DNA of 53,826 nucleotides from a virus. Taxonomy: Duplodnaviria > Heunggongvirae > Uroviricota > Caudoviricetes. How positions within the stretch are numbered: position 1 is the first letter of the stretch; every line of letters starts with the position of its first letter. The translations under genes and the position numbers were made by a program. Location: IMG/VR virus record IMGVR_UViG_2917855067_000007; one strand, given 5' to 3'. The notes below the pieces were generated by a model. That model saw only the letters and a program-made list of their open reading frames with translations. It searched no databases and was not told where the DNA came from. Shown piece after piece: positions 1 through 52,458 of this stretch.

Positions 1-270
1 TTAAAGACTGACCTGACCGATCCGGGCTTCGCCTGTGAACTTATCGCAAAGGCCAAGTACTTTGGCTTCTTCCAGAACGGCGGATATGTCTTCGCTGATA
101 TAGCTGAAAATATCTGGAATCCATAAAAGTGGCAGGCCGTTTATCTCACACTGACGGATCTGTAAATGCATCTGGAATGAAACATTCCTTGCGCGGTTGA
201 GTTTATGGAAGCACTCAAGGCTAAGATATTTTTCAGCACTATTAACAGCAATGGTATTCAAATCAGACAT
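1..270 (-). CDS. hypothetical protein, C-terminus cut by window edge
   Basis: ORF running off the window start; low-GC DNA (~36%); no recognisable domain. Confidence 0.3.
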   Translation of the reverse strand: MSDLNTIAVNSAEKYLSLECFHKLNRARNVSFQMHLQIRQCEINGLPLLWIPDIFSYISEDISAVLEEAKVLGLCDKFTGEARIGQVSL

Positions 271-357
271 ATATTTTCCTTACAGGGGCGTAATTACTCC
301 CCGTTAAAATACGGTTATAATTAAATGTTTTTCAGTTCTTATAAATCGATTATTGTT

Positions 358-1183: not shown

Positions 1184-1424
1184 ACCGCGCCTCCGTTATC
1201 TGGTCTTTCAGGTCAGCAATTAAGCGGTTAAGCTCTTCCCGGCCATCGTCGTTCAGCGCGTCCAGTCCGTAGTCATAAGCGGCTAGAATAGCGACTTCCA
1301 TTTCACGGGAATCAATTTCAACCACTACTTTTGAACCCGGTTTAATAAAGGCTGGCGGATCGTAACAGTCATCGTGGAACGGGTTAAGCGCCGCCGCTTT
1401 ACGGTTGTCCAGTGGGTTAAACAT
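1176..1424 (-). CDS. hypothetical protein, ~82 aa
   Basis: ATG at 1422-1424 inside the longer ORF-track frame; follows the small gene at 1417-1620. Confidence 0.35.
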   Translation of the reverse strand: MFNPLDNRKAAALNPFHDDCYDPPAFIKPGSKVVVEIDSREMEVAILAAYDYGLDALNDDGREELNRLIADLKDQITEARYA

Positions 1425-1620
1425 GGCGCGCCTCCTGAACCGGCAGACAGCCAGCAAAGCAGAGGATAAAGCGACCGGCCAGCATGGAACGGGCTTCCTG
1501 TTCGCTGTACGCGGTGATTTGTTCGCGGTGTGGTTTGTCCTGCATGTCAGCCCTTGATACCGCAAGAAAGAGAAATACGCGATTTTTAGGGTGAGTTTGG
1601 TTACACTTCGGCTTAGCCAT
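1417..1620 (-). CDS. small regulatory protein, possibly Icd-like cell-division inhibitor of P4-like elements
   Basis: 67 aa ORF with ATG at 1618-1620, first gene of a minus-strand operon next to a divergent RHH gene; family assignment from memory only. Confidence 0.3.
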   Translation of the reverse strand: MAKPKCNQTHPKNRVFLFLAVSRADMQDKPHREQITAYSEQEARSMLAGRFILCFAGCLPVQEARHV

Positions 1621-1807
1621 AGCGTTAGTCCTGTTAACGTGTTGGTCAGAAGCCCGGTTAGTGTCCCCACACTGCCGGGCTTTACTTTACAGGTGTATGT
1701 CACCTTGCAAATCAATCCTACACGTATGGTGAAATACACTTCAAGTCTTTTTTTCTGTTTTTTTAGTTGCGTATACTGAAATACACCTATTCGAGTGGAG
1801 AACAGTA

Positions 1808-1993
1808 ATGGCAACAGGTGCGAAGAATGCAAAATCGCAAATGACCACCGTCAGAATCCCCCATGAGGTTATGGAGGATATAGAACAGTTAAAGGAAACT
1901 GGAGAAAGTACAGCCGGTTTCTTAGTAACTGCGGCAAAGGGTGAGATAAAGCGCCGCCAACGCCGTAAGAAACTGGACACGATAAAGGAATAA
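1808..1993 (+). CDS. ribbon-helix-helix (CopG/Arc-like) DNA-binding protein
   Basis: 61 aa, ATG at 1808 preceded by GGAGAA; basic C-terminus; divergent from the 1417-1620 operon. Confidence 0.45.
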   Translation: MATGAKNAKSQMTTVRIPHEVMEDIEQLKETGESTAGFLVTAAKGEIKRRQRRKKLDTIKE

Positions 1994-2164
1994 CCCCTTT
2001 TACGTCGTGTGGTTATGCTGGTAAGCATCGGTTGTATCCCGGTATAATTCATCGCGTAGAATCATCTTCCTGATAAACCCTCTCATCGTTTCTTGTTCGT
2101 TCCGGTGAGGGGGTTTTCTTTTATCTGGTCAACACTGTCAAAGCTGGCTGTACTGCAGCAGGTT

Positions 2165-3172
2165 TTAAACCAGCGTCACGGCGTTCTCATCGCTGGCCGC
2201 GTAAAGATAGCCATCCCCCAGCGCGTAACCTTCTTCACGTAAATAGCCATGCTCATAAACACCTCGTTGCGGGATATCCTCCGCGCGGTAGTGTTGGCTG
2301 TGTTTCAGCGTCAGGATCTGCAAATTTTTCAGCGTCGTAACAGCCAGGCGCTTACCCGGCATAAACGGCGGGATAAAGGCAAAACGACCGGCGACACTGC
2401 TTGTCAACATATCCCCCGCCGTCAGCGTCAGTGGTTGATCGGCCATGTTGAACAGTTTCAGGCGTTCGCGGGCGGCAAGCTGCGCGCCAACCATCACCAC
2501 AAGGCCCGGATCTTCGCGCTGACCTTCGGGGATTTTTGACGTGATGAGGCAATCAGCCAGATCGTGAACATCGGCAAAATCACCCCCTTTCCCCAGTGCG
2601 AAAGCATCAGAAATAATTTGTGAACCGTTATTGAATGTTTTTGCCAGCGAGTGCCAGCCAATATTGATATCTTCGCCGTTTTTATATTGTTCCGGGTTGG
2701 TATTTTCGGCAATCATCTTGCCGTTAAATCCAATACGGAGCATATCCCGCACCACGGCCTTCTTGAAAAAAATGATCATTTCATTACTGAAATTTTTCGC
2801 GTTTGCCATTACCGCCATTTCTTCATAAGTCAATGAGGCGCAGGAATCCGTTTCTGATAATAAAAAAGGTGTTCCGTTGGTTTTTAGTTTCTTATGAAAG
2901 CGACCTTCCTTTGCACGGCCTGTATAAAGGGAACCATCACCGATGGTGATCGTCGTGCCATCCGCACCGGTAATGTCCAGTAATGAAATATTATCAATCA
3001 GCCAGGACGAGCCTTTAACATCAAGCGTGGAACATCCCCATGCATCCGGAGATGCTTTTTCCGGCTGTGATATGGTGAAATACCCCGTATCTTCGTTTTT
3101 ATATTTAATATTAAAAGACTTAATCAGGTTTTCGTGATACTGCGTTAAATAATCTGGTGTTACATAAGACAT
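2165..3172 (-). CDS. P2-family (GpN-like) major capsid protein homolog
   Basis: 335 aa; conserved blocks GFNGK, GKGGDFADVHDLADC and EDPGLVVMVGAQLAA align to remembered P2 GpN motifs. Confidence 0.6.
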   Translation of the reverse strand: MSYVTPDYLTQYHENLIKSFNIKYKNEDTGYFTISQPEKASPDAWGCSTLDVKGSSWLIDNISLLDITGADGTTITIGDGSLYTGRAKEGRFHKKLKTNGTPFLLSETDSCASLTYEEMAVMANAKNFSNEMIIFFKKAVVRDMLRIGFNGKMIAENTNPEQYKNGEDINIGWHSLAKTFNNGSQIISDAFALGKGGDFADVHDLADCLITSKIPEGQREDPGLVVMVGAQLAARERLKLFNMADQPLTLTAGDMLTSSVAGRFAFIPPFMPGKRLAVTTLKNLQILTLKHSQHYRAEDIPQRGVYEHGYLREEGYALGDGYLYAASDENAVTLV

Positions 3173-3181
3173 AATTCTTCC

Positions 3182-4054
3182 TTAGTTGATATTTCTTTCT
3201 AATGTGAGTCGTTGCGCGCGCTGCTGGTGACGGATCGGCAACATATAATTTAAATATTCATCTGCACTCATCACCGTATGAATAAAGGCCATTTCAGAGC
3301 TGTAATAATCGCGTGATATTTCGGCGCGTTCCCGCTTATCTTCATTAAGAGGGTTAACAAAACGGGGATTAATGCTTCCTTCCGGGCGATATGTGCAGTT
3401 GTTCACCACCTTGTTAAGGGCAATCTCCAGTTTATCCATTTTCTGCCAGGCAAGGTCAGCACACTCAATTTCAGAAATCGCCTTTTTGAATGCCTTAGCA
3501 TCGAGGGATGACTTAGGCAGGGAACGGCGCAGATCGAGCAGTTCCACATCTTCCACGGCCAACAACACATCAATAACCGGCGCGAGCAATGCCAGAATGT
3601 TTTGTCTGATGGATAACTCTTCCTGCTGTGCCTTGACTTGATTTTTAATTGCTGCGTGATGCAGTCTGAATCTTTCATCTTCTAGTGATTTACGGGCCTG
3701 CTGTGCTTCTTTAATCGTCTGCGGCGCAGGAATTACAGCCGGGCTTGGCAGACGCTGCAATTCTGCTTCAAGTGCCGCCAGCTTTTCCCGTTCAGACTGG
3801 CAAAGTTCATGCCCTTTATTAACCAGTGTAAACAGTTCCTCTTTAGTCGCCGGAATGTCTACGCTTTCCCCGGAAATAGATTTATATTCGTGGGTAAGGT
3901 GCATCATTTTATTCAGGCGATAAAGTTCAATAACGCGCATTTCATACAAACCACGGTGACAACCGTCATAAGGCTGAATAAATGCCGTGTTATTAATGAC
4001 AGCAAGATCCGCATCACGATATACGCGATGGCTGATAATATCAGTAATGTTCAT
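3182..4054 (-). CDS. coiled-coil protein, putative capsid scaffold
   Basis: 290 aa immediately upstream of the capsid homolog; central helical region; no protease motif recognised, so GpO homology is not claimed. Confidence 0.35.
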   Translation of the reverse strand: MNITDIISHRVYRDADLAVINNTAFIQPYDGCHRGLYEMRVIELYRLNKMMHLTHEYKSISGESVDIPATKEELFTLVNKGHELCQSEREKLAALEAELQRLPSPAVIPAPQTIKEAQQARKSLEDERFRLHHAAIKNQVKAQQEELSIRQNILALLAPVIDVLLAVEDVELLDLRRSLPKSSLDAKAFKKAISEIECADLAWQKMDKLEIALNKVVNNCTYRPEGSINPRFVNPLNEDKRERAEISRDYYSSEMAFIHTVMSADEYLNYMLPIRHQQRAQRLTLERNIN

Positions 4055-4253
4055 TTAATTTTCCGTAAATTTTCGCCAGCAACAAATATATTAAACACTG
4101 CATAAACCGGCATTGCCTGGTATTTTGTAACCACTTAACCTAATACTGAATAAATACTGCCAACTCCCCATGCTACGAGTATTTACAACAAAAAGAATAC
4201 ACAAAATCCTTAGCATTCAAATAAATCATATTCATCTCTGAATAAAATCAGAT

Positions 4254-4493
4254 TTACACTTTGCGCTCTTTGATTTTGTTGTCGATCCAGTCGCTGATCT
4301 CACCCTCAACCCATGCGACAGAACGCGGGCCGGTTTTAATCGGCTTTGGAAAGACATTTGCATTGATATCTTTATAAATACTGGCGCGACACCGCCCCGT
4401 AAGCATCATAACTTCAGGCAGGCGGATCAATCTTTTTCCTTGGTTTAAAAGCTGCATTGCATCATTTCTCATATTCACACCCGCTATTAACAT
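4254..4493 (-). CDS. alpA: AlpA-family transcriptional regulator
   Basis: 79 aa; core LIRLPEVMMLTGRCRASIYKD...FPKPIK...GPRSVAWVEGEI matches the AlpA HTH family. Confidence 0.7.
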   Translation of the reverse strand: MLIAGVNMRNDAMQLLNQGKRLIRLPEVMMLTGRCRASIYKDINANVFPKPIKTGPRSVAWVEGEISDWIDNKIKERKV

Positions 4494-5042
4494 TCAAACG
4501 TTATGTAATATCTTTCTATATACAGACATTGACTTTATAGGATGCCTGTAGATTGGATGAAGTCATTGTTATTCACGCCATAAGTGCATGTCAAAAAGAT
4601 GTATGTGGGATGTGGGGCTTGACTTTTAGTTAAGTCAATTTAAGCCTCAGGAAGACTCTAGAAGCCTCTGAAAGGATTTATGGTTTGAGTGAAATCAATT
4701 AGCCAGATATAAAGACACTAAAAATCAAACAAACAACAACAAAAATGAAATAAAAATAAAACACAATAAAAACAGATTTTAGCAAAAAGTGCCAACTATA
4801 TAATGTTAATTCCTATAAATAAGATTTTTATAAATTAACACCATAAAAACAACAATCAAGAGCACAATTAATAATCAAAAAAAGAAATATTTCATATTAA
4901 TCAATAGATTAGTAATCTTGGTGTTTTTTATAAAATTTCCAAAATCATAATTCATTGAAAATGATAATAAAAAGTTTAAGCGTGGATGCTGAGTGTCCAC
5001 GCCTAACATCTAATTTAGCGGTATTCCCGTCTTAGACCTTCT

Positions 5043-6233
5043 CTAATCTTTTACCCTGCCACTCGCCAGCGATTCCATATAGTCGGCATACCATTGAAGC
5101 ATTTCCCGGCGTCCATCCAGATAGCGGGCATGATTATATGTGCCACGGATGGTATTTTTATCAACATGTGCAAGCTGGGTTTCGATCCATTCGGTGTTAT
5201 ACCCTTTCTCATACAAAATTGTGCTCATGGTATGTCGGAAACCATGCCCGCAAGCTTTGCCCTTATACCCGAGTCGCTTTATTAGCTGATTAATTGCTCC
5301 TTCACTCATTGGCTTTCGCGGGTCGTTCCGGCCCGGAAAAATGAAAGGATTGCGGCCCGACAACTCTTTTAATTGCCCGAGAATAACCATAGCCTGGCGA
5401 GAAAGCGGGACAACGTGCGGACGTCTTTTCTTCATTCGCTCTTTGGGGATCTCCCACAAGGCATTATCAAAATCAATCTCTGACCACGGGGCCGCGCGTA
5501 ATTCAACCGGACGTAACCCCACAAGAATAAGCAGACGCAGCCCCAAAATAACCTGAACGTTACTTTTTGCCGTCGCCAGCGTCTGGAAAAATTCGGGTAA
5601 CTCTTCGGCTTCCAGATGGGGGAAGTGCTCCCCTTCGTGTCCTTCCATAGCCACAGATAGATCAGGGGCGGGGTTATATTCTGCGCGGGCGGTAACGATC
5701 GCATACTTCCAGACCTCCCCGCACCACTGGCGAACCTTACGGGCCTTTTCAGTCGCTCCCCTATTCTCGATGCGTTTAAGCGTATTCAGCAAATCAAGGG
5801 GCTTTATTTCCGTGATGGGGCGTTTTCCAATCCAAGGGAATATGTCTTTACTGAATGCTTCCAGAATGTCCGAGGCGTACCCCTCAGACCATTTCTTCTG
5901 CCGTTCTGTATGCCACTCTCTGGCGATTTCTTCGAAGGTGTTTTTGATTTGCGCTTCGCGGTTCAATTTTTCTTCCCGCTTCGCTTCGTTCGGGTCGATC
6001 CCCCCAGCCATACCCCTTTTGGCCTCATCTCGTTTCGCCCTGGCATCAGCCAGGGTTACATCGGGATATACCCCCAGCGCCAACAGCTTTTCTTTTCCGG
6101 CTACCCGGTACTTTAAACGCCAGTACCGGGAACCATTGGGATTAACAAGCAGATAAAGCCCACCACCATCGGCCAGTTTATAGGGTTTTTCTTTCGGTTT
6201 GGCCGTATCGACCTGACGGGCATTTAGTTTCAT
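5043..6233 (-). CDS. int: tyrosine integrase, P4-type
   Basis: ATG at 6231-6233 (MKLNARQVDTAKPKEKPYKLADGGGLYLLV); C-terminal R/H/Y catalytic region (HGFRHT); 140 bp from the att repeat. Confidence 0.85.
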   Translation of the reverse strand: MKLNARQVDTAKPKEKPYKLADGGGLYLLVNPNGSRYWRLKYRVAGKEKLLALGVYPDVTLADARAKRDEAKRGMAGGIDPNEAKREEKLNREAQIKNTFEEIAREWHTERQKKWSEGYASDILEAFSKDIFPWIGKRPITEIKPLDLLNTLKRIENRGATEKARKVRQWCGEVWKYAIVTARAEYNPAPDLSVAMEGHEGEHFPHLEAEELPEFFQTLATAKSNVQVILGLRLLILVGLRPVELRAAPWSEIDFDNALWEIPKERMKKRRPHVVPLSRQAMVILGQLKELSGRNPFIFPGRNDPRKPMSEGAINQLIKRLGYKGKACGHGFRHTMSTILYEKGYNTEWIETQLAHVDKNTIRGTYNHARYLDGRREMLQWYADYMESLASGRVKD

Positions 6234-6395
6234 TTGGGGGTATCTCCAGTAGCCCACACAGCATATACCCCCGAATATCCCCCCAAAAGACGTGGATTTT
6301 AGGAGATATTGATAGACGTTAAAACACTATCGGGGGCGCTCAAAGCTAGAGTATATGCGGGTTTGTTGGATTTTAATAGACGGGAAAAGACGTTG

Positions 6396-6444
6396 AAATG
6401 GTGCCGATAATAGGAGTCGAACCTACGACCTTCGCATTACGAAT
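6396..6444. repeat. attL core: 49 bp copy of the thrW 3' end
   Basis: identical to 52380-52428 by direct comparison. Confidence 0.85.
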
Positions 6445-6825
6445 TATAAGAATCCACTTCTAATTCAAAGCATTACCACATCAACACTGCGCTCACACGT
6501 CCCACCACGTCAAAACATGTAAAGCCTTGCAAGCCATTGCGAGGCCTTATGTGTCTCAGTTTTGTCCCACCTTGTATTATGACTTGCATAGCCAATGAAG
6601 ATAAACGTGACGACAAACGGCGCAGCAGTCTTCTTTTCTTTCACACTTTCCCACCCAGCATGCATACCTTTCTGTCATAACTGAAGTGAATGTCTGTTAT
6701 GAGTTATGAGCTGTAAGTTCAACGGGTCGATGCAACACTATCCTTAATCAAGGGGGGGAGACTGCCATGAAACGAAGAACACGAATTAAATCCAGTGTGT
6801 CTACCGACCCCGGTATGTTAAGGCA

Positions 6826-7155
6826 TTAGCGTTTTCTGATTTCAGTGATGTAGGTAATGGCAGCATGTTCAACAAAATTGGACACGTCGTCATAGGCTTC
6901 TTTACCGACGGGCGAATTGAATGCCGCAATAGCGTCTTCAAGCGAGTCGAACCACAGTTCGGAGAAACCGTCGACGGGGGAATCGGGATATTTTTCCCGA
7001 TCGATGGGGTTGAGTACATAACCTCTTAAGCCGGGGAGTCTGAGCGCTATCGCTGTATGTACCTCATCCCAGTATTTAACAAAATCGTCGAAGCTCTGTC
7101 CTTTTTTACGGGTAAGAAAGCCCACATGTTTGAAGCCGTTAGCAGGTGACATCAT
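6826..7155 (-). CDS. EthD-family protein
   Basis: 109 aa; EthD-like motifs; divergent from the LysR gene. Confidence 0.5.
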   Translation of the reverse strand: MMSPANGFKHVGFLTRKKGQSFDDFVKYWDEVHTAIALRLPGLRGYVLNPIDREKYPDSPVDGFSELWFDSLEDAIAAFNSPVGKEAYDDVSNFVEHAAITYITEIRKR

Positions 7156-7380
7156 ATTTTCCTCTGTATTAATTCATGTTTTTGTAAAACTGGCCGGCGC
7201 AATCCGGCATCGTCTTGCAACTTCGATGAAGCGTAATAGAGAAGGTGAATATGGCTGTTTTTCTTCGTGCGATAAAGACGCTTTCAATCGTCTCTGAGTA
7301 GACATAGATTCTACAAATGGTTTTCAATTTATTGTAAAATGAATCTATATATACAGAGCTAATAACTCTCACAGGCAATT

Positions 7381-8292
7381 ATGAGAAGAACAGATCATCT
7401 ACGTGGAATTACGGCTTTTATTGCCACAGCCCAGCAGGGGAGTTTTACGGCAGCAGCGGAAAAGCTGGGACTGACAAAGTCGGCCGTAGGAAAAAGCGTC
7501 AGTCGCCTGGAAGACCGCCTCGGGCTGAAGCTTTTTCAACGTTCCACCCGGCGGTTGAGCCTGACGCCGGATGGTGAGCGTTTTCTTACCAGCTGCCAGA
7601 GCGCAATAGATATCCTGGAGCAGGCAGAGGCGGAACTGACGTCACATACCTGCCAGCCATCCGGGCGCCTGCGGGTAGATTTACCCGCAGCCTTCGGACG
7701 ACAGCGCATCCTTCCTATCCTGCTTGATATCACCCGACGCTACCCCGAACTGGCATTGACCGTTACGTTCAGCGAGCGGTTCGTTGACCTGATTGATGAG
7801 GGGCTCGATCTTGTCGTTCGCATTGGTGAGCTGTCAGACAGCAGCGGACTGGTTGCCAGAAGGTTGACAACCCAGAAGCTGGTGATCTGCGCCTCTCCAG
7901 ATTATCTGTTCAACCACGGAGAGCCTGTCAGTATCGATGACCTGAATCACCATCAGTGCGTTGTCGGCTTTCGCCGTAACCAGCCTGTTTCGTGGTTGCT
8001 GAAAGAGGGGGGTGGTCAAATCAGCCGCTTTGTCCCTCCGCCGACCCATGAGTTTGCCGACGGCGACGCAATGCTCGCAGCTACCCTGGCTGGAGGGGGA
8101 TTGTCCCAACTCCCCCTCTGGTTGGTGGGCAGATATCTCGACGAGGGTAAATTGCGGGAAGTGCTGCCCGGACACTCCGGCGGGGAGATGCCTATCAGCG
8201 CGCTGTGGCCAAAAAGCCGCCAGCTACTCCCCAAAATCCGCTATGTAGTGGATACCCTGGTCAGAGCTGCGGAAGACGGCCTGCTTGATTAA
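7381..8292 (+). CDS. LysR-family transcriptional regulator
   Basis: 303 aa; N-terminal HTH (ITAFIATAQQGSFTAAAEKLGLTKSAVGKSVSRLE) and LysR substrate-binding domain. Confidence 0.85.
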   Translation: MRRTDHLRGITAFIATAQQGSFTAAAEKLGLTKSAVGKSVSRLEDRLGLKLFQRSTRRLSLTPDGERFLTSCQSAIDILEQAEAELTSHTCQPSGRLRVDLPAAFGRQRILPILLDITRRYPELALTVTFSERFVDLIDEGLDLVVRIGELSDSSGLVARRLTTQKLVICASPDYLFNHGEPVSIDDLNHHQCVVGFRRNQPVSWLLKEGGGQISRFVPPPTHEFADGDAMLAATLAGGGLSQLPLWLVGRYLDEGKLREVLPGHSGGEMPISALWPKSRQLLPKIRYVVDTLVRAAEDGLLD

Positions 8293-9402
8293 TTATTCCC
8301 TGCTATCGGACCAGAAGGGGTAATCCGTATAGCCTTTTTCATCTCCGCCATACATCGTTGCCCGGTTAACGTCATTCAACGGCCAGTCGTTAACCATACG
8401 TTCCACAAGATCCGGGTTCGCAATGTAAGGCCGACCAAAACCAATCAGGTCAGCCTTCCCCTCCTGGAGATACGCTTCGGCACGCTGCTTATCAAAGCCA
8501 CCGGCAATAATCAAAGGCCCGGAATAGGCTGCACGAAATTTTTCAATAAACCCGGCAGGGATGGCCTGTTCTCCCAGTGTTTGCTGGTCGCTCAGATGAA
8601 CATACGAGAGAGAACGGGCGCTGAGTTTATCTGCAAGCATCAGCCAGGTTTCTTCCTCGCCATCAAAAGGATGCATGTCAAACAGACGCCCGAAAGGAGC
8701 CAGACGTATACCTGTTTTACCTGAGCCGATGGCCGTAGAGATTGCGTCAGTCACTTCCAGAACAAAGCGCAGGCGATTGTCAGTATCCGCGCCACCGTAC
8801 TCATCCTGACGAGTATTCAGCCCACCATTAATAAACTGCTCAAGCAGATAGCCATTGGCGGCGTGGATCTCAACACCATCAAAGCCCGCACGGACAGCAT
8901 TTTTAGCGGCCTGAACGTAATCCTGCACCACGGTTTTAATCTCGGGGATCGACAGCGCACGGGGTTCCGATACCGGAACCGGACCGGGTTTGCCGTTTTC
9001 GTCGCGTGCGTAACAGGTGGAATTATTGGCTTTAACCGCTACCGAACTAACGGGGGCCTGCCCATTAGCCTGCAAACTTGTGTGAGAAATTCGGCCGACG
9101 TGCCAAAGCTGAATATAAATTTTTCCGCCAGCGTCGTGCACCGCTTTTGTAACTTTTCCCCATCCCTGCACCTGAGCATCGCTGTAGATTCCTGGAGTGA
9201 AAAGATAACCCTGTCCCTGGACGGAGATTTGCGATCCCTCCGTAATAATGAGCCCTGCGGATGCGCGCTGCTGATAATATTTTGCGGTCAGCCCATCTGG
9301 AGTATCGCCTGATATTGCCCGTGAACGGGTCATTGGTGCCATAACGACGCGATTTGCCAAATCGGTGTCACCGGCCTGAAATGGGGTAAATAATTTTTCC
9401 AT
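8293..9402 (-). CDS. NADH:flavin oxidoreductase, Old Yellow Enzyme family (NemA-like alkene reductase)
   Basis: ATG at 9400-9402 with AAGGAGA upstream; OYE TIM-barrel motifs. Confidence 0.85.
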   Translation of the reverse strand: MEKLFTPFQAGDTDLANRVVMAPMTRSRAISGDTPDGLTAKYYQQRASAGLIITEGSQISVQGQGYLFTPGIYSDAQVQGWGKVTKAVHDAGGKIYIQLWHVGRISHTSLQANGQAPVSSVAVKANNSTCYARDENGKPGPVPVSEPRALSIPEIKTVVQDYVQAAKNAVRAGFDGVEIHAANGYLLEQFINGGLNTRQDEYGGADTDNRLRFVLEVTDAISTAIGSGKTGIRLAPFGRLFDMHPFDGEEETWLMLADKLSARSLSYVHLSDQQTLGEQAIPAGFIEKFRAAYSGPLIIAGGFDKQRAEAYLQEGKADLIGFGRPYIANPDLVERMVNDWPLNDVNRATMYGGDEKGYTDYPFWSDSRE

Positions 9403-9782
9403 TTTTATCTCCTTTACTGAAGGAAATATGATGGTCCCAACGATGTAATAAAAAAACACTACTCTGGTCCGAACAGAGTAGACATAATTTCTACATTTAG
9501 TGTTCTCTCGGTATTAAGTCGTCATATTTTGGTTTTTAGGTGATGTCTCACGTAGAGATAAAGCCTGCCGTAAAATTGATGAAGACTCAGTATGTCCGCT
9601 TCTGGCACACAAGCGACATCCAAGCCTCTCCGGCCAGGGCATGAAGGGGCGCCAGTTCATAGACGGTGCAGTGATTCTGTCCAGTGCTGGCATTCCGCAA
9701 GCTGCAGCTGCGCGGCAAGCCTGAAACTTTACGCTCGATGCGCCGGTGAACACGGCCCGTAGCTGGCATCTTTACACATAAC

Positions 9783-9862
9783 CAGTACTGTAAAAGTCCC
9801 GTAATACCGTGTCGCCCGGACATTTTATGTACCGTTTGGCCGCTACCATTCAGTACTTTCAC
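9783..9862. repeat. ~80 bp direct repeat, copy 1
   Basis: near-identical to 10172-10251; begins with palindrome CAGTACTG and ends cagtact. Confidence 0.6.
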
Positions 9863-10171
9863 TGTTTTTATTCATTTTTTTCCCAGGAATCGCAGAAAAA
9901 ATCCCGCCACGCCTGTCTTATTTCGTCGATATCAGAGCAAAACACCCAAATATCGGCCATCTTCGCCAAACCTCGCACCCGGCATTCCAGAGTGCGAGAC
10001 ACGCAAAATAATCTATAATTATCAATGATTTACATGATTGCCACTCTAAGCATAAATCCATATAGCGGCGAAATAATTGCCCTGAAACAAAATTCGGTAT
10101 TCGGATGGATTTGGGGCCATCTGCCCGCCATATAGTTTTATAAGCTGATACATATACATTTCCTCATTATC

Positions 10172-10251
10172 AGTACTGTAAAAGTCCCGTAATACCGTGT
10201 CGCCCGGTCATTTTCAAACCACCGTTTGGCCGCTACCATTCAGTACTTTTC
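10172..10251. repeat. ~80 bp direct repeat, copy 2
   Basis: near-identical to 9783-9862. Confidence 0.6.
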
Positions 10252-10614
10252 GTCCTGCTGACAGATGTGCCATCGCAGCTGCGCGGCCAGTCGGAAATCT
10301 GCTGGCATACTATGCGCCCGGTGCGGTCGCAGAACTACTGGCAGGCCGTCCTTTCTTCATTTTCCCGCTACCTGGACACAAAGCGCTGTACGTCCAGTTT
10401 GGGGGCGAATTATGATTAGGCAGGCTCCGGCAGTGCTCCCGGCTCTGTCAAAACTTAGTGGCGTAAAGTCATGGAGGATCGGTGGGAGGAGATGCAAATC
10501 CTCTCATGCAAAAATGCGTAAAATCAGTAACGGCTGGAAATCATTCAATACTCGCACTATCGGAAGTTCGCCAGCCAGCCGCAGTATTCCGCCATGACAA
10601 GTTGCTGCGACTTT

Positions 10615-10908
10615 TTATGTTGAACGGATAAATACCCAGACCAGCAGACACGCCACCACCGGCACAGCAAAATCCATCAGGCTTGCTACATCCCACGCGC
10701 GTGGATCAAAACCGCCCCACCACGGCATGTTAATCCGCTTGCCATGCCCGAACATTTCAATCCAGCGATATTCTGCCTGGGTGTGTTCACGCGCAATGAA
10801 GAACGTACAGCCGGCTATCGCTCCGTAAACCCAGTTTCCGGTAAAAAGACCAACCAGTATCTGCGCAGCCACAGCACAAAGTGCATGAAGTAAGGGGCTT
10901 ATATCCAT
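10615..10908 (-). CDS. small integral membrane protein
   Basis: 97 aa, three hydrophobic segments; ATG at 10906-10908 with strong AGGAGG. Confidence 0.45.
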   Translation of the reverse strand: MDISPLLHALCAVAAQILVGLFTGNWVYGAIAGCTFFIAREHTQAEYRWIEMFGHGKRINMPWWGGFDPRAWDVASLMDFAVPVVACLLVWVFIRST

Positions 10909-10921
10909 TACTCCTCCTTTA

Positions 10922-11623
10922 TCAGATATCGCTTCGGGAAGTTGATAACAGCTTTAATTCTGACTCAAGTTCATCAACTCTTTCAGTCAGTTTCTGGATA
11001 TGGTGAATCAGTGGAACAACCAGACGTTCGTACATTACACCTTCGGCAACAAGGCCATTGCTGGAAATAGCTTCAGGAGCATCATCTTCGTTAGCTGGTC
11101 GCCAGTGTACAAACTGAGGGGCAATTTCTCCTACTTCCTCGGCAATCAATCCATAGAACCCCCAATCACGCCTGTCATTTTCGCATTGCGACCTGTACCA
11201 TACAGGGCGCATCTTGAGAATGAGATCGGCGTGCTCTGAATCTATCGTCTCTACTGAATGCTTATAGCGGATAGACGATGTTGACCGCAATACAGACGAA
11301 ATTGCGGGGTCAGGATTAAGATAAAGGTTTGCCGCAGCTGTAGTCGTAGCCAAATTCCATAAATAAAACGCTTCACGACCTGTCAGTGGATAAAAATCCC
11401 CGCCATAACGACCGCTTTCCAGATCATTCACTTCTACTTTATTTTTCAGCTTATTATCCACTTCAGTTTTTGTGTATCTGGTACTGATATCCTGCTTTGC
11501 ACTGTCCATATCAGTCTGAAGCGTTGATACTTTTCCGCTAATTGAGGAAATATCTTCCTTAGCTTTACTGACATCTCCCTTTAGCGTGGTGATATCTCCT
11601 GGAATTACTGTCGATGTAGCCAT
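10922..11623 (-). CDS. tail fibre protein with C-terminal intramolecular chaperone (S74-like) domain
   Basis: 233 aa; coiled-coil N-terminus; C-terminal GLIAEEVGEIAPQFV block. Confidence 0.6.
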   Translation of the reverse strand: MATSTVIPGDITTLKGDVSKAKEDISSISGKVSTLQTDMDSAKQDISTRYTKTEVDNKLKNKVEVNDLESGRYGGDFYPLTGREAFYLWNLATTTAAANLYLNPDPAISSVLRSTSSIRYKHSVETIDSEHADLILKMRPVWYRSQCENDRRDWGFYGLIAEEVGEIAPQFVHWRPANEDDAPEAISSNGLVAEGVMYERLVVPLIHHIQKLTERVDELESELKLLSTSRSDI

Positions 11624-11632
11624 TTGTCTCCC

Positions 11633-11914
11633 TCACATCCAGCCACGAAGTTGATGCTCAACAACAACCGCGTATTCATCGAATATTGACGGTGTTTTCA
11701 CATCATTAATGATGCGCACGTTTACAAAATATCCGTCTTCCTTAACACATACCGGCTCGCCATCGTCAGTCAGTTCTCCGGTTTCTTTATACACGTCACC
11801 TATCACGTCAATGAGAATATCATCCTGCATCGACTCGTCATCATAATAGCCAGTGCTATCCATAAAGGCCGAAAAGTCGGCCCTGTCGGAAAATTTGAGT
11901 GTTAAATCTTTCAT
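11633..11914 (-). CDS. hypothetical protein in tail fibre locus
   Basis: 93 aa, acidic; ATG overlaps stf stop (ATGA). Confidence 0.35.
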   Translation of the reverse strand: MKDLTLKFSDRADFSAFMDSTGYYDDESMQDDILIDVIGDVYKETGELTDDGEPVCVKEDGYFVNVRIINDVKTPSIFDEYAVVVEHQLRGWM

Positions 11915-13977
11915 TTAATACTCTCCCCCATTTGCGCATCAGTTAATTCTTTATGCCATATTCTGAAATTCCTGACATGACCAAATAAATGGCGTAAACC
12001 GGCTGTAGTCTGGCCTCCAATACGGATAATTGCGGAGTTCTGAATATATGACCATGTGGTTTTTGTTTCGCTGGATATACGCCCGTTACTTACTGCGCAT
12101 GTAGACTGATCAGACTTTACACGCATCCCCATAACCATTTTTTCAAGTGATGCATTTTCGTTTATCCGTCTGTTAGACCCACCAATATCGCAATAAGGAA
12201 ATCCGTCGTAATCTGCTGAAGAACCGAAGCCAAGAATAATAGCCGCTCCGGTTTGATGACCGCCGGTATCAAAAACACGCGGTGCTGCATTTGGCGTTTT
12301 ATACCAGTTCTTATGTACCTCACAAAGAACCGTAAAAGGAAGATTATAAAGATTATTCTTAATTGGGACTGTAACTATATCGCTTGCCCGCGTTACCGGT
12401 GCCGCCCCCGTAACAATAAAAGATGATGCGCCTGTACCAGCCTCAATCTGTGGAGTGGTTACATCGAGACAATCCCCTGATGCCACCATCTGCCCTGTAT
12501 CCGGAGAATACTGGACGAAACCACCAACCGTATTTTCTGTTGTATCTGCTTTTAATGTAGCCTCAAAAAATATCCAGCCAGTTGCATCTTCCTTAACAGA
12601 CCTTGCTGTAACACGGCTTGTCTGGCCTGTCTTGCTAATTATGCGGGTGGTAAGGTTCAGGCTTGCTGCTCCTATTGATGTCCTTACCTCCCCATCATAA
12701 TGTTCAAATAAAATACGAACGGCGATATTATCAACTTCACTTTTTACCCGACAGGATATAGTTACATACTTTTCGTCACCTGAAGTATCAACCCCTCCGG
12801 TACTTGAATACAGCCCTATAATGGTATGCGCTTTACTTGTGCCAACAATCGAATCCTGTACGACAAACCGGCCATAATTAAAACCGAAACTATCTGTGCC
12901 TGTTTCTGTAACGTCCAGTGAAGTTGACTTATTCCACTTCGAAGGGTCTGTACTGTTCGGGAAGAAGTTCGTTCTTTGCCCCTCAATAAGCAGGCCATCA
13001 CATTCAAATCGTGGCTCGTCAATGGCAGCCTCTGTCAGCACACCAGATTTATTAATGTAAGTTGCTTTTGATGCGCGTTTAAACTTTACAATCTTGTCGC
13101 CAGGCATTGTTATTTCATCATCGCCAATAACAATCCTTTTATATGACGGCGAAAAGCCCGTAATCATATCCAGTGAATCATTAAACGGAATCCAGACATC
13201 AGGCAGCGGCGGAACTATATTCACATATGGTTTTACAGTCACTTCCGCTGCAGCTTCTGCGCGGTCTGCCGCCGCTTCCGAACGTGTCGCCGCCGCGACG
13301 GCTTCATCCTTTTTCTGCCCGGCCTTTGTTGCGTCGGCTGCGGCCTCCTGCGCTTTTGTGGTGGCAGTTTCAGCTGCAGTTGTCGCTAATAATGCTTCAC
13401 GACGTGCTGCGTCAGCATTTTCTGCAGATTTCTCCTCTGACGCCCGGGCATTAGCCTCTGAAAGTGATGCTGCTGTTGCTGCTGTTTCTGATGCTGTTTT
13501 AGAAGATGCAGCAGCTTTCTCGCTGTTGGCTGAATTCGTCTCTGACGTTTTCGCCGCGTTCTTCGATGATGCCGCTGCAGTTTCGGATTTCTTTGCCGCC
13601 GCTGCGCTCTGAGAGGCAGCTTCAGCGTTTCGTGCCGTTTCTTCCAATATTTCCTCAAAACGGCGCAATGCCTCAGGCATGACATCATCTTCCGTCATGG
13701 CACCGAGAAAATCATTCAGCGTACCTGGCCTGGAACCTTCATAGACGGTAATGGTCCCGGCATGTGACGGCGGGAATCCCTCCACCAACAGAATGACGCT
13801 GTACTGACCGTACTCAACATCCATACTGTAACGCCCGGCTTCATCCGGATTTTCAGAGGCCACCGTGTTCACCAGTACCGTGGTGCTGTTACGCTTTGCC
13901 TTCAGTTGAATAGTGCAGTTCTGTATTGGTTTTCCCGCACCATCTTTCAGCACACCTGAGATTTTTACTGCTGCCAT
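11911..13977 (-). CDS. stf: side tail fibre protein
   Basis: N-terminus MAAVKISGVLKDGAGKPIQNCTIQLKAKRNSTTV matches lambda Stf; Ala/Ser-rich shaft; distinct C-terminal globular domain. Confidence 0.85.
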   Translation of the reverse strand: MAAVKISGVLKDGAGKPIQNCTIQLKAKRNSTTVLVNTVASENPDEAGRYSMDVEYGQYSVILLVEGFPPSHAGTITVYEGSRPGTLNDFLGAMTEDDVMPEALRRFEEILEETARNAEAASQSAAAAKKSETAAASSKNAAKTSETNSANSEKAAASSKTASETAATAASLSEANARASEEKSAENADAARREALLATTAAETATTKAQEAAADATKAGQKKDEAVAAATRSEAAADRAEAAAEVTVKPYVNIVPPLPDVWIPFNDSLDMITGFSPSYKRIVIGDDEITMPGDKIVKFKRASKATYINKSGVLTEAAIDEPRFECDGLLIEGQRTNFFPNSTDPSKWNKSTSLDVTETGTDSFGFNYGRFVVQDSIVGTSKAHTIIGLYSSTGGVDTSGDEKYVTISCRVKSEVDNIAVRILFEHYDGEVRTSIGAASLNLTTRIISKTGQTSRVTARSVKEDATGWIFFEATLKADTTENTVGGFVQYSPDTGQMVASGDCLDVTTPQIEAGTGASSFIVTGAAPVTRASDIVTVPIKNNLYNLPFTVLCEVHKNWYKTPNAAPRVFDTGGHQTGAAIILGFGSSADYDGFPYCDIGGSNRRINENASLEKMVMGMRVKSDQSTCAVSNGRISSETKTTWSYIQNSAIIRIGGQTTAGLRHLFGHVRNFRIWHKELTDAQMGESIK

Positions 13978-13988
13978 ATCCACTCCAC

Positions 13989-14041: not shown

Positions 14042-14641
14042 TCAGAATTTATAACCGACACCCACGATGAAACCATCAGTGCGCCAGTCGCCACTGCCGG
14101 AGCCTTCATAAGCAATATCAATGGCCACGGATTCGGTCGGGTTAAACTGCACGCCAGCTCCCCACGCCAGAGACGTGTTGCTGTGGCGACCGTCATCACT
14201 TTCGGTCAGCACATCGTGCGTTTTCCCCTTGTTATCAGTTACGCGAAGATAATCCCCGGAAAAAGTCGAAACACGGCTGTAAGCCACACCCACCATCGCA
14301 TAAGCACTGAACCATTCATTCACGCGCACAGTTGGCCCCGCCATCATGCTGAACCAGCGGTTACGCACTGAATCTTCATGCCAGCGGGTATCGCTGTAAC
14401 GGGTAAGCAAGCGATTCTTGTCTCCGGCATAACTGAATGACGTCACCAGCCCCAGCGTGTCCGTAAATTCATAACGGTATTTCACGTTAATGCCCTTCAG
14501 GTCACCGCTGCCGGGCATATCAGTATGGGTCTGAAGATACCCGGCGCTTAGTGTGGACTGATGCTCTGCTGCACTCGCTGGCGTACCAGCGGCGACCAGC
14601 CAGACTACTGCAGACAGAATAACAGCACATAATTTACGCAT
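14042..14641 (-). CDS. lom: Lom outer membrane protein (Ail/Lom family)
   Basis: 199 aa, signal peptide, beta-barrel ending ...GVGYKF. Confidence 0.9.
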
Positions 14642-51006: not shown

Positions 51007-51328
51007 GGCCTGTCAGTTTCTCAAGATATCCAGACCTACCGCTACCAACTGGATACGAACAGGCCGCCTACAGGCAACACGCAAAGACCCCACTAAACCA
51101 AAATCTCCTTACCTCACAACGCGACAAGCCTGCATTGCGGCGCTTCAGTCTCCGCTGCATACTATCAAGGTGAGCGCGGGTGATGGCATAACAGAGGAAA
51201 GAAAATGTCACTCTTCCGCAGAAGTGAAATATGGTACGCCAGTTTCACATTGCCGAACGGTAAAAGATTTAAACAGTCTCTTGGAACAAAGGACAAAAGG
51301 CAGGCAACAGAGCTCCATGACAAGCTAA
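50978..51328 (+). CDS. xis: excisionase-like DNA-binding protein
   Basis: ATG at 50978 with AGAGG upstream; [29 protein letters not shown]; overlaps the int start, so the real 3' end is uncertain. Confidence 0.5.
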
Positions 51329-52368
51329 AGGCTGAAGCATGGCGGGTCAGCAAACTTGGTGAAATACCTGATATGACGTTCGAGGAAGCGTGTGTCAGGT
51401 GGCTTGAAGAGAAAGCACATAAAAAATCACTGGACGATGACAAAAGCCGGATCGGATTCTGGCTTCAACATTTCGCAGGGATGCAACTAAGAGACATTAC
51501 TGAATCAAAAATTTATTCAGCAATTCAGAAAATGACGAACCGGCGTCATGAGGAAAACTGGAAACTCAGGGCAGAAGCATGCAGAAAAAAAGGGAAACCT
51601 GTTCCAGAATACACGCCAAAACCAGCGTCCGTTGCAACGAAGGCAACGCATCTTTCATTTATAAAGGCCCTGCTAAGAGCCGCAGAGCGTGAATGGAAAA
51701 TGCTGGATAAGGCACCAATTATTAAAGTGCCTCAACCAAAGAATAAACGGATCCGCTGGCTGGAGCCTCATGAAGCACAAAGGCTGATTGATGAATGTCC
51801 GGAGCCATTAAAGTCTGTTGTTGAATTTGCACTGGCAACAGGTTTAAGACGCTCGAACATCATCAACCTTGAATGGCAACAAATAGACATGCAGCGCCGG
51901 GTGGCATGGATAAACCCGGAAGAGAGTAAATCAAACCGCGCAATTGGCGTTGCGCTGAATGATACTGCATGTCGCGTATTGAAAAAACAAATAGGGAATC
52001 ATCACCGTTGGGTATTTGTGTATAAGGAAAGCTGTACCAAACCAGACGGAACGAAAGCGCCAACAGTAAGGAAGATGCGGTATGACGCAAACACAGCCTG
52101 GAAAGCGGCGCTGAGACGAGCTGGTATTGATGATTTCAGATTTCACGACTTGAGACACACCTGGGCAAGTTGGCTGGTTCAAGCCGGAGTCCCGTTGTCA
52201 GTGTTACAGGAAATGGGTGGCTGGGAGTCTATCGAAATGGTTCGTCGATATGCTCACCTCGCGCCTAATCACCTTACCGAACACGCACGGCAAATAGACT
52301 CGATTCTGAACCCATCGGTCCCAAATTTGTCCCAGTCAAAAAATAAGGAAGGTACTAATGATGTGTAA
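51205..52368 (+). CDS. int: tyrosine integrase of the lambdoid prophage
   Basis: 387 aa; C-terminal catalytic R...[10 protein letters not shown]...Y; ends 15 bp from the tRNA 3' end. Confidence 0.9.
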
Positions 52369-52379
52369 CTTATTGATTT

Positions 52380-52428
52380 AAATGGTGCCGATAATAGGAG
52401 TCGAACCTACGACCTTCGCATTACGAAT
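52380..52428. repeat. attR core within thrW
   Basis: 49 bp identical to 6396-6444. Confidence 0.85.
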
Positions 52429-52458
52429 GCGCTGCTCTACCAACTGAGCTATATCGGC
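52383..52458 (-). tRNA. thrW: tRNA-Thr (anticodon CGU)
   Basis: reverse complement gccgatatagctcagttggtagagcagcgcattcgtaatgcgaaggtcgtaggttcgactcctattatcggcacca; cloverleaf with CGT anticodon and CCA end. Confidence 0.9.

What the first reader, a model, noticed from the sequence alone, without database searches (positions are those of the whole stretch)
6826..9402. Metabolic cargo at the prophage b-region end
Inside the prophage boundary, beyond the tail fibre genes, are a LysR regulator divergently arranged with an EthD-family gene and convergent with an Old Yellow Enzyme-family NADH:flavin oxidoreductase. This is a regulator-plus-reductase cassette typical of electrophile or xenobiotic detoxification, not of phage biology, suggesting lysogenic conversion affecting redox or electrophile stress.
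Basis: partly seen in the sequence, partly recalled or inferred. Interest (0 to 1): 0.45.

Follow-up and report, generated by a model that had tools for sequence, protein, structure and literature searches.

The report
Reductase cassette carried as prophage cargo
A three-gene unit (a LysR regulator, a small EthD protein and an Old Yellow Enzyme flavin reductase) really does sit inside a complete lambda-like prophage, in the slot next to the attachment site where related phages carry other host-altering genes. The same unit travels on several different Escherichia prophages, but its effect on the host is untested.

Summary

**Genes.** EthD (6826-7155, -), LysR (7381-8292, +) and a 369-aa OYE (8293-9402, -) are intact.

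**Location.** They lie inside a 45.9-kb lambda-like prophage bounded by an exact 46-bp tRNA-Thr repeat (6399-6444 and 52383-52428). Both flanks match the attP of Shigella phages SfII and SfV, and the integrase is 99.7% identical to SfII Int. The cassette fills the slot where SfII and SfV carry gtrABC. A sister strain has the same prophage and cassette without the neighbouring P4-like satellite.

**Spread.**
- The 3.1-kb unit (97.7% identical) sits at the tail-fibre end of prophages at other chromosomal sites in E. coli and E. albertii.
- It lies on an E. albertii F-like plasmid with phage flanks.
- It sits beside cryptic-prophage genes in E. marmotae.
- Chromosomal, non-phage versions exist in other Enterobacterales.

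**State of the genes.** All copies examined are intact, and dN/dS is about 0.05-0.14 in the divergent comparisons. A GTAGA-N7-TCTAC box precedes both ethD and the OYE gene.

**Function.** A LysR-controlled ene/nitro/quinone reductase giving electrophile tolerance is inferred, not shown. The closest solved OYEs are about 50% identical.

**Verdict.** An ordinary kind of thing (a prophage moron) with an unreported cargo.

The parts
6399..6444 (+). attR core: a 46-bp copy of the 3' end of tRNA-Thr (thrW). It also serves as the int-proximal att of the P4-like satellite to its left.
   Evidence: Exact repeat of 52383-52428. There are only two copies in the window, against 0 expected by chance.
6445..6721 (.). 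Phage attR arm and b-region end, including a 51-aa ORF at 6510-6665 (-).
   Evidence: 6393-6569 is 94-95% identical to the gtrA side of SfII/SfV attP. 6397-6719 is 88% identical to phage phi458, and 6510-6703 is 89% identical to phage 21 and lambda hybrids. The arm is present in 3754 of 5426 E. coli genomes.
6782..9612 (.). The cassette unit proper: the segment shared with non-phage chromosomal copies.
   Evidence: 95.3% identical to the E. marmotae chromosome and 90.5% to the chromosomal locus L073, with the same end points in both.
6826..7155 (-). EthD-family protein, 109 aa.
   Evidence: PF07110 E=3.8e-16; TIGR02118 104 bits. Intact in all copies; dN/dS 0.03-0.11.
7296..7315 (+). Putative LysR box 1 (GAGTAGACATAGATTCTACA; dyad GTAGA-N7-TCTAC) in the ethD-lysR divergent intergenic region.
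   Evidence: Two copies in the window, 0 expected by chance. The core GTnGAATCTATGTC is conserved in six homologous cassettes at 72-80% nt identity.
7381..8292 (+). LysR-type transcriptional regulator, 303 aa.
   Evidence: HTH_1 plus LysR_substrate. Best NCBIfam model is YafC at 204 bits against a cut-off of 470, so it is not YafC. Closest solved structure is CrgA 3hhg, E=2.6e-42.
8293..9402 (-). Old Yellow Enzyme family NAD(P)H:flavin oxidoreductase (alkene reductase), 369 aa.
   Evidence: PF00724 at 280 bits. HAANGY active-site motif. 51% identical to GTN reductase 5epd and 49% to morphinone reductase. NemA subfamily model scores 400.2 against a cut-off of 403.
9459..9495 (-). OYE upstream control region: LysR box 2 (9476-9495), overlapping an 8-bp-stem hairpin followed by a T-run (9459-9481).
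   Evidence: family D3. GTAGAAtTTATGG...CTGTTCGGAA is conserved upstream of the OYE gene in six homologues.
9613..10456 (.). An 850-bp phage-derived spacer holding two 90-bp direct repeats (9771-9859 and 10159-10249). It is absent from the other cassette-bearing prophages.
   Evidence: Part of a block (9616-10909) that is contiguous at the tail end of an ssrA prophage in E. coli 19AR1321. Repeats. In L001, L069 and L075-L082 the cassette joins the 128-bp block directly.
10457..10584 (.). Conserved 128-bp block forming the tail-side flank of the cargo slot.
   Evidence: 81-90% identical in phi458, in the E. coli D2 and ECONIH4 prophages, and in all cassette-bearing prophages and the plasmid.
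10615..13983 (-). Distal tail-fibre module: a 97-aa membrane ORF, a 233-aa protein with a Peptidase_S74 domain, a 93-aa ORF and a 690-aa tail fibre with phage_tail_N.
51205..52368 (+). Prophage integrase, 387 aa, of the SfII/SfV/P22 thrW type.
   Evidence: 99.7% identical to SfII and phi458 Int, 98.2% to SfV, 90% to P22-like phages.
52383..52458 (-). Intact tRNA-Thr(CGU) thrW, containing the attL core (52383-52428). proA follows at 52573-53826 (-).
   Evidence: ARAGORN.

Best explanation
The cassette is a moron, meaning self-contained non-phage cargo. It is carried in the attP-proximal slot (the b-region end) of a complete lambda-like prophage integrated at thrW in Escherichia sp. E3356.

**Shown.**
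- The 2.8-kb unit lies between phage attR-arm sequence and phage tail-distal sequence, inside the 46-bp att repeats.
- The slot is the one in which SfII and SfV carry gtrABC, and in which phi458 and other E. coli prophages carry unrelated ORFs.
- The same unit, with its phage flanks, sits on prophages at other chromosomal sites in E. coli and E. albertii and on an F-like plasmid.
- All three genes are intact and under purifying selection.

**Inferred.**
- The unit was captured from an enterobacterial chromosome, where the same three-gene arrangement occurs among ordinary genes. It then spread between phages by recombination in the conserved flanks.
- It brought its own control regions. The LysR protein binds the GTAGA-N7-TCTAC box found upstream of both ethD and the OYE gene. 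On sensing an electrophilic or quinone-like inducer, it activates both genes.
- The OYE, an FMN enzyme with a His/Asn/Tyr active site, then uses NAD(P)H to reduce activated C=C bonds, quinones or nitro compounds. The EthD protein acts as an accessory.
- The lysogen therefore gains a second, separately regulated ene-reductase in addition to the chromosomal nemA.
For: **Boundary.**
- Exact 46-bp repeats occur at 6399-6444 and 52383-52428 only.
- Both att arms match SfII/SfV attP, and Int is 99.7% identical to SfII Int.
- Sister strain L060 lacks the satellite but keeps the prophage, cassette and att, followed by chromosomal genes.

**Complete prophage.** CI, CII, O, P, Q, RusA, endolysin, Bet and Exo are present. 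The structural module from terminase to tail fibres matches annotated E. coli prophages at 96%.

**Slot.**
- gtrABC lies between attP and the tail-fibre assembly gene in SfII and SfV.
- The same flanks hold Orf54 in phi458 and two hypothetical genes in E. coli D2 and ECONIH4.

**Spread.**
- Prophage contexts at torT, at a yfc-region site and at a ycgJ-region site, plus one prophage with a Mu-type baseplate tail. Identity is 97.7% over 6510-9609 plus the 128-bp block.
- F-like plasmid and E. marmotae chromosome.

**Chromosomal homologues among non-phage genes.** L006-L011 and L073.

**Function.**
- Intact ORFs and dN/dS 0.05-0.14.
- HAANGY motif and full-length alignments to GTN reductase, morphinone reductase, PETN reductase and NemA.
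- Shared box at both promoters, conserved in the homologues.
- The closest solved LTTR is CrgA. CrgA activates a divergent quinone reductase gene, mdaB, and that activation is induced by alpha-methylene-gamma-butyrolactone (PMC2724274).
Against: - None of the 50,697 phage records carries the cassette, so packaging into virions has not been demonstrated.
- No expression or phenotype data exist.
- The OYE is only about 50% identical to any solved enzyme and falls just below the NemA subfamily cut-off, so its substrate is unknown.
- The box is T-N13-A rather than the classical LTTR T-N11-A, and only one half-site is well conserved in the distant homologues.
- The role of EthD is unknown, and no solved relative was found by sequence.
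- In E. albertii, two different prophage types adjoin the same cassette and chromosomal flank. This could mean the cassette end sometimes stays behind as a relic.
- The promoter scan found no strong sigma-70 consensus for either cassette promoter.
Confidence: 0.7

Rival explanations
1. The cassette is not phage DNA. It is chromosomal DNA, or the remnant of an older island, trapped between the prophage and the P4-like satellite in a tandem array at thrW.
For: thrW holds a tandem array here, a prophage plus a satellite. Chromosomal versions of the cassette exist in other genera. In E. albertii the same cassette and flank adjoin two different prophage types.
Against: There is no third att core between the cassette and the tail genes. 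SfII-type attP arm sequence lies on the outer side of the cassette and phage tail-block sequence on the inner side. The sister strain without the satellite keeps the same arrangement. The unit with its phage flanks recurs at unrelated integration sites and on a plasmid.
Confidence: 0.05
2. The cassette is a neutral hitch-hiker. It was captured by illegitimate recombination, is not expressed usefully, and is decaying or destined to be lost.
For: It is rare in E. coli, present in 1 of 5426 complete genomes. No phenotype is known. Very close pairs give an OYE dN/dS of 0.36-0.43, though this rests on few substitutions. One distant chromosomal homologue (Salmonella s1, L008) has a split OYE ORF.
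Against: All three ORFs are intact in every Escherichia copy examined. dN/dS is 0.04-0.14 at dS 0.07-0.35. The regulatory motifs are conserved. The unit persists across four Escherichia lineages, several phages and a plasmid.
Confidence: 0.12
3. The module is a specific metabolic step rather than general detoxification. An example would be reduction of one particular plant- or host-derived enone, quinone or phenolic metabolite, with EthD as a dedicated partner enzyme.
For: OYE, LysR and EthD are kept together, in the same order, in every close homologue across Enterobacterales. The chromosomal copy L073 sits among phenolic-acid decarboxylase, MarR, SDR, ADH and glyoxalase genes. The His/Asn active site resembles morphinone reductase and NerA rather than NemA.
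Against: The flanking genes differ in every genus, so no conserved pathway context exists. No transporter or further pathway enzyme travels with the unit.
Confidence: 0.2
4. The module serves the phage rather than the host. It might link redox or electrophile stress to prophage induction, or exclude other phages.
For: The position next to attP is a slot where other phages carry superinfection-related genes such as gtrABC, which alter the phage receptor.
Against: The alternative cargos in this slot and the two small window ORFs beside the cassette gave no PADLOC hit; the three cassette proteins themselves were not scanned against PADLOC. Identical gene sets function in non-phage chromosomal settings. 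The LysR box occurs only at the two cassette promoters in the whole window.
Confidence: 0.03

Closest known systems
gtrABC serotype-conversion cassettes of Shigella phages SfII, SfV, SfI and SfIV, and of Salmonella P22
   Same: The integration module is the same: Int is 98-99.7% identical to the Sf phages, with the same thrW att core and the same 125-bp arm. The physical slot is the same, between attP and the tail-fibre genes. Like gtrABC, the cargo is not needed for phage growth.
   Different: The cargo is a cytoplasmic regulator plus reductase set, not O-antigen glucosylation genes. The phage body is lambda-like with a J-type tail, not the Mu-like tail of SfV or the podovirus P22. The phenotype is unknown.
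Lambdoid prophage morons in the b region or tail-distal region, such as lom and bor of lambda and sodC, sopE and nleG in Salmonella and EHEC prophages
   Same: It is a unit added between conserved phage modules, absent from close relatives and exchanged between mosaic phages. A Lom/Ail gene lies in the same prophage at 14042-14641. The concept is reviewed in PMC3594210.
   Different: Most described morons are single genes for surface or secreted proteins. This one is a three-gene unit that carries its own transcription factor and two promoters.
NemR-NemA (E. coli N-ethylmaleimide reductase) and related class I bacterial OYEs: PETN reductase, NerA/GTN reductase and morphinone reductase
   Same: Same fold and catalytic apparatus, with full-length alignment at E about 1e-97 to 1e-107. 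The likely chemistry is NAD(P)H/FMN-dependent reduction of activated alkenes, quinones and nitro compounds.
   Different: Only about 50% identical to the closest solved enzymes. It has a His/Asn pair (HAANGY) where NemA and PETNR have His/His (the latter from my own knowledge). It scores below the NemA NCBIfam cut-off. It is regulated by an LTTR rather than the TetR-family NemR, and it is partnered with EthD rather than GloA.
CrgA-mdaB of Neisseria meningitidis (an LTTR that activates a divergent NADPH quinone reductase gene)
   Same: CrgA is the closest solved LTTR by sequence (E=2.6e-42). It is an autorepressor that activates a divergently transcribed redox-detoxification gene, induced by an alpha,beta-unsaturated lactone (PMC2724274).
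   Different: The target enzymes differ: MdaB is a flavodoxin-like reductase, not an OYE plus EthD. A second, unlinked promoter (the OYE gene) appears to carry the box here. Effector and oligomeric state are unknown.

Membership tests
Prophage moron / lysogenic-conversion cargo | Lies inside the att-bounded prophage. | tested here: met
   The 46-bp core repeats occur at 6399-6444 and 52383-52428 only. Both arms match SfII/SfV attP. The sister strain confirms the boundary.
Prophage moron / lysogenic-conversion cargo | Dispensable insert: related phages with the same flanks lack it or carry something else. | tested here: met
   SfII and SfV carry gtrABC, phi458 carries Orf54, and the E. coli D2 and ECONIH4 prophages carry two hypothetical genes between the same flanks.
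Prophage moron / lysogenic-conversion cargo | Independent transcription unit with its own promoter or regulator. | tested here: inconclusive
   It carries its own LTTR, the native upstream regions and conserved boxes. No consensus sigma-70 promoter was found by the scan, and there are no expression data.
Prophage moron / lysogenic-conversion cargo | Confers a phenotype on the lysogen. | not testable with these tools
   Needs lysogen versus deletion-strain assays.
Old Yellow Enzyme family (PF00724), classical bacterial group | Full-length Oxidored_FMN TIM-barrel domain. | tested here: met
   280 bits, profile positions 1-340 of 342. End-to-end alignments to solved OYEs.
Old Yellow Enzyme family (PF00724), classical bacterial group | Catalytic His-x-x-His/Asn pair and the Tyr proton donor. 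| tested here: met
   VEIHAANGYLLEQF aligns with the same motif in GTN reductase. In morphinone reductase the Tyr position is Cys. Sequence.
NemA (N-ethylmaleimide reductase) subfamily, NCBIfam NF007899 | Score at or above the curated cut-off of 403 bits. | tested here: not met
   400.2 bits. It is therefore filed as an OYE or alkene reductase, not as NemA.
LysR-type transcriptional regulator | N-terminal HTH_1 plus a C-terminal LysR substrate-binding domain. | tested here: met
   77.6 and 141.2 bits.
LysR-type transcriptional regulator | Divergent target gene, with an LTTR box (T-N11-A dyad) in the intergenic region. | tested here: inconclusive
   The divergent ethD arrangement is met. The dyad GTAGA-N7-TCTAC is present at both promoters, but its spacing is T-N13-A and only one half-site is conserved in the distant homologues. 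Binding was not tested.
YafC (E. coli LTTR) equivalog NF040888 | Score at or above the cut-off of 470 bits. | tested here: not met
   204 bits.
EthD family (PF07110 / TIGR02118) | Domain match above the curated cut-offs. | tested here: met
   60.5 bits against 22, and 104.2 bits against 30.5. The biochemical function of the family is not established. No solved relative was found by sequence.
gtrABC O-antigen conversion cassette | Encodes GtrA, GtrB and a Gtr(type) glucosyltransferase. | tested here: not met
   The Pfam content is EthD, LysR and OYE only. Only the slot and the integration module are shared.

The most novel reading that the evidence does not exclude
The cassette may be a phage-disseminated, self-regulated module for tolerating electrophiles, quinones or nitro compounds, acting as a true lysogenic-conversion factor in Escherichia (E. 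coli, E. albertii, E. marmotae and cryptic clades). That would make it the first Old Yellow Enzyme conversion cassette described. It would also define the attP-proximal slot of SfII-int and related lambdoid phages as an exchangeable cargo hotspot that can hold metabolic regulons as well as surface-modification genes.
Probability: 0.3. Interest if true: 0.5.

Novelty: new member of a known kind. Interest (0 to 1): 0.35.

Why it matters
Prophage cargo is a major source of strain-level differences in enteric bacteria. Most described cargo is surface, toxin or defence genes. This case shows a complete small regulon, with a sensor regulator and two enzymes, being moved between phages with different integration sites and tail types, onto a conjugative plasmid, and across at least four Escherichia lineages while staying under purifying selection. 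If it changes tolerance to reactive electrophiles, quinones or nitro compounds, it would be a simple and testable example of metabolic lysogenic conversion. Such compounds include host inflammation products, plant dietary compounds, disinfectant by-products and nitro-drugs. It would also give a natural marker for gene flow through the attP-proximal slot. If it has no phenotype, it remains a well-documented ordinary moron.

Tried and rejected
**Rejected explanations.**
- **Third or degenerate att core.** I looked for one between the cassette and the tail genes, which would have made the cassette a separate island. None was found with up to 3 mismatches.
- **Aberrant-excision capture from a thrW-adjacent gene.** Kluyvera ascorbata has an OYE 5' relic 6.4 kb from thrW. 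I rejected this as a direct mechanism. Phage arm sequence lies between the core and the cassette, betT and DUF2254 intervene in Kluyvera, and the full K. cryocrescens OYE (89%) sits in a different gene set.
- **Transposon signature.** The junctions show no inverted repeats, target duplications or IS elements.

**Searches that found nothing.**
- **Known RNAs.** Rfam found nothing in 6200-11000 at E up to 0.1.
- **Alternative cargos in the slot.** The D2 and ECONIH4 genes and phi458 Orf54 gave no Pfam or PADLOC hits.
- **Literature.** No paper in the held library links OYE, alkene reductase or NemA to prophage cargo, or describes an EthD-LysR-OYE unit.

**Uninformative or uncertain material.**
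- **Structural-module relatives.** A dusA prophage at 96% identity has a different integration end, so it says nothing about the slot.
- **phi458.** Its record holds two copies of the att core, at record positions 1-52 and 44268-44315. It may therefore be a prophage-derived sequence rather than a packaged genome. The attP argument rests on SfII and SfV instead.
Full report
**What is in the sequence**

- EthD is at 6826-7155 (-).
- LysR is at 7381-8292 (+).
- The OYE gene is at 8293-9402 (-). Its ATG at 9402 is preceded by AAGGAG, and the longest ORF extends to a GTG at 9459.

Pfam and NCBIfam confirm the families.
- EthD: PF07110 E=3.8e-16; TIGR02118 104 bits against a cut-off of 30.5.
- LysR: HTH_1 plus LysR_substrate.
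- OYE: Oxidored_FMN at 280 bits over the whole profile.

LysR is divergent from ethD across 225 bp. It is convergent with the OYE gene, and the two stop codons abut at 8292/8293. This arrangement is kept in every close homologue.

**Layout of the window**

The window is 100% identical to GCA_004745295.1 contig PDIE01000025.1. The sources name that organism Escherichia sp. E3356, an unclassified Escherichia. Its proA-thrW segment is at most 96% identical to E. coli.

From right to left the window contains:
- proA (52573-53826, -) and an intact tRNA-Thr(CGU) thrW (52383-52458, -);
- a lambda-like prophage;
- the cassette;
- a 46-bp copy of the tRNA 3' end (6399-6444);
- a P4-like satellite (1-6398), with its integrase at 5043-6257 and an AlpA gene.

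The 46-bp core occurs exactly twice, and no third copy appears even with 3 mismatches allowed.

The prophage looks complete. It has Int, Bet, Exo, CI, CII, O, P, RusA, Q and endolysin. The block from terminase to tail fibres matches annotated E. coli prophages at about 96%. The distance between the cores is 45.9 kb.

**Is the cassette inside the prophage?**

Yes, on four lines of evidence.

1. *The integrase and both att arms are of the SfII type.*
 - The integrase (51205-52368) is 99.7% identical to SfII and phi458 Int, 98.2% to SfV and 90% to P22-like Int.
 - In the SfII and SfV genomes, attP is internal. Window 50968-52428 matches the int-xis side plus the core, and window 6393-6569 matches the core plus 125 bp on the other side at 94-95%.
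 - The sequence directly outside the cassette is therefore the phage's own att arm.

2. *Phage sequence lies on both sides.*
 - On the outer side, 6570-6721 continues as sequence shared with phi458, phage 21, lambda hybrids and 3754 of 5426 E. coli genomes.
 - On the inner side, 9616-10909 is a block found at the tail end of other lambdoid prophages, for example one at ssrA.

3. *The sister strain.* GCA_004745285.1 has the same tail end, cassette, arm and core (99.7% identity). It then runs directly into chromosomal genes, without the satellite.

4. *The slot is a recognised cargo position.*
 - SfII and SfV carry gtrA-gtrB-gtrII/V there.
 - phi458 carries Orf54, and the E. coli D2 and ECONIH4 prophages carry two unannotated genes, all between the same flanks: the arm and a 128-bp block equal to window 10457-10584.

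**Distribution**

Only one of 5426 complete E. coli genomes carries the cassette. That strain is Z1323HEC0477, at 97.7% identity, also at thrW and also next to a lambdoid tail end. The wider protein collection shows near-identical OYEs in E. albertii, E. coli, E. marmotae and unclassified Escherichia.

| Context | Loci | What adjoins the cassette |
|---|---|---|
| E. coli, torT-torR side | L079-L081 | Tail-fibre end of a lambdoid prophage |
| E. coli, yfc-region side | L082 | Tail-fibre end of a lambdoid prophage |
| E. albertii, ycgJ-region side | L075, L076, L078 | Lambdoid prophages |
| E. albertii, same flank | L077 | Prophage with a Mu/SfV-type baseplate tail |
| E. albertii F-like plasmid | L069, L070 | Same unit with its phage flanks, between the tra region and the hok/psiB leading region |
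| E. marmotae chromosome | L063-L068 | Core unit only (6782-9612, 95.3%), beside cryptic-prophage genes near ycgG-minCDE |

In the E. coli and E. albertii prophage contexts the shared segment is window 6510-9609 plus the 128-bp block, at 97.7% identity. The window is unusual in having 850 bp (9613-10456) between the cassette and the 128-bp block.

Non-phage versions also exist.
- A 90.5%-identical copy with the same end points sits in an unnamed enterobacterial chromosome, among MarR, SDR, ADH, glyoxalase and phenolic-acid decarboxylase genes (L073).
- Copies at 72-80% nt identity occur among ordinary genes in Silvania, Serratia, Salmonella and Klebsiella, and on megaplasmids of Enterobacter and Yersinia.

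The junctions show no transposon features. Capture from a chromosome, followed by exchange through the conserved flanks, is therefore the simplest account. This step is inferred.

**Are the genes functional?**

All three ORFs are intact in the window and in the ten other Escherichia-type copies examined. dN/dS against the window is 0.04-0.14 wherever dS is at least 0.07.

The OYE aligns end to end with solved enzymes and keeps the HAANGY motif, a His/Asn pair plus the Tyr proton donor. Its best matches are:
- GTN reductase 5epd, 51% identity;
- NerA (GTN reductase 4jic);
- morphinone reductase, 49% identity;
- then PETN reductase and NemA.

It scores 400.2 bits against the NemA subfamily cut-off of 403, so it is not filed as NemA.

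The LysR protein is not YafC, at 204 bits against a cut-off of 470. Its closest solved relative is CrgA. CrgA autorepresses and activates the divergent quinone reductase gene mdaB, and it responds to alpha-methylene-gamma-butyrolactone (PMC2724274).

A 20-bp box containing the dyad GTAGA-N7-TCTAC occurs only twice in the window: at 7296-7315 in the ethD-lysR intergenic region, and at 9476-9495, which is 74 bp upstream of the OYE start. Its core is conserved at both positions in six homologous cassettes whose surrounding non-coding DNA is otherwise unalignable.

**Most likely mechanism**

LysR probably binds both boxes and, on sensing an electrophilic or quinone-like signal, activates ethD and the OYE gene. 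The OYE would then reduce activated alkenes, quinones or nitro compounds with NAD(P)H. The role of EthD is unknown.

The location and cargo status are shown. Regulation and chemistry are inferred from family membership, conserved motifs and the CrgA analogy. The host phenotype is untested.

**Novelty**

OYE homologues are very rare in the 50,697 phage records: 44 have any match, none above 60% identity and none from an enterobacterial phage. No paper in the held library describes this cargo.

The kind of thing, a moron in the b region or attP-proximal slot of a temperate phage, is well known (PMC3594210; the gtr cassettes). This is a new member of a known kind, of modest interest. What is notable is that the cargo is a self-regulated three-gene unit seen on several phages, at several sites, on a plasmid and in several species.

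Noticed in passing
window 1-6398: A P4-like satellite is integrated in tandem with the prophage at thrW. It carries an integrase (5043-6257), an AlpA gene (4254-4493) and a gene matching the P2-family major capsid protein (2165-3172, PF05125). It is 99% identical to elements lying directly next to thrW in some E. coli genomes. The sister strain lacks it.
   Followed up: partly
window 9613-10456: An 850-bp segment holds two direct repeats of about 90 bp (9771-9859 and 10159-10249, 89-100% identical). It lies between the cassette and the 128-bp block. It is present at other lambdoid tail ends but absent from every other cassette-bearing prophage. It has no Rfam or Pfam match.
   Followed up: partly
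window 9258-9603; L052 9802-10145; plasmid hits H73-H80: A 346-bp relic, made of the first 49 OYE codons plus 200 bp upstream, is 85% identical to a stretch of the Kluyvera ascorbata chromosome. There it lies next to DUF2254 and betT, 6.4 kb from proA-thrW. The same fragment lies next to DUF2254-betT on an IncN plasmid of Klebsiella pneumoniae, and it occurs on plasmids of about 106-127 kb in Citrobacter and Enterobacter whose flanks were not examined. It looks like a mobilised piece of Kluyvera chromosome.
   Followed up: partly
L069/L070 9672-12870: An E. albertii F-like plasmid carries the cassette together with its phage-derived flanks, the 128-bp block and part of the att arm. They lie between the SLT (orf169)/traM end of the tra region and the hok/psiB leading region. 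This indicates transfer of the unit from phage to plasmid.
   Followed up: partly
window 14042-14641 (-): An Ail/Lom-family outer-membrane protein gene lies between gpJ and the tail fibre. It is a second, classical moron in the same prophage.
   Followed up: no
window 9459-9481 (-): An 8-bp-stem hairpin followed by TGTTTTTTTA lies between the putative LysR box and the OYE start codon. Homologues keep a palindrome (CTGTTCGGAACAG-like) with changes in both arms, but they lack the T-run. It could be an operator or an attenuator.
   Followed up: partly
L010 12019-15110: In the Enterobacter ludwigii megaplasmid version, a 3-kb insert between lysR and ethD carries a second OYE-family gene.
   Followed up: no
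L075-L078: In E. albertii the same cassette and the same chromosomal flank (DLH hydrolase, LysR, ycgJ) adjoin either a lambdoid J-type tail module or a Mu/SfV-type baseplate module. Either the phage body was replaced by recombination, or the cassette end persists as a relic beside which new phages integrate.
   Followed up: no
L005/L054 (phage phi458, OP434518.1): The record, labelled circular, contains two copies of the thrW att core, at record positions 1-52 and 44268-44315. This suggests it was derived from an integrated prophage rather than from a packaged genome.
   Followed up: partly
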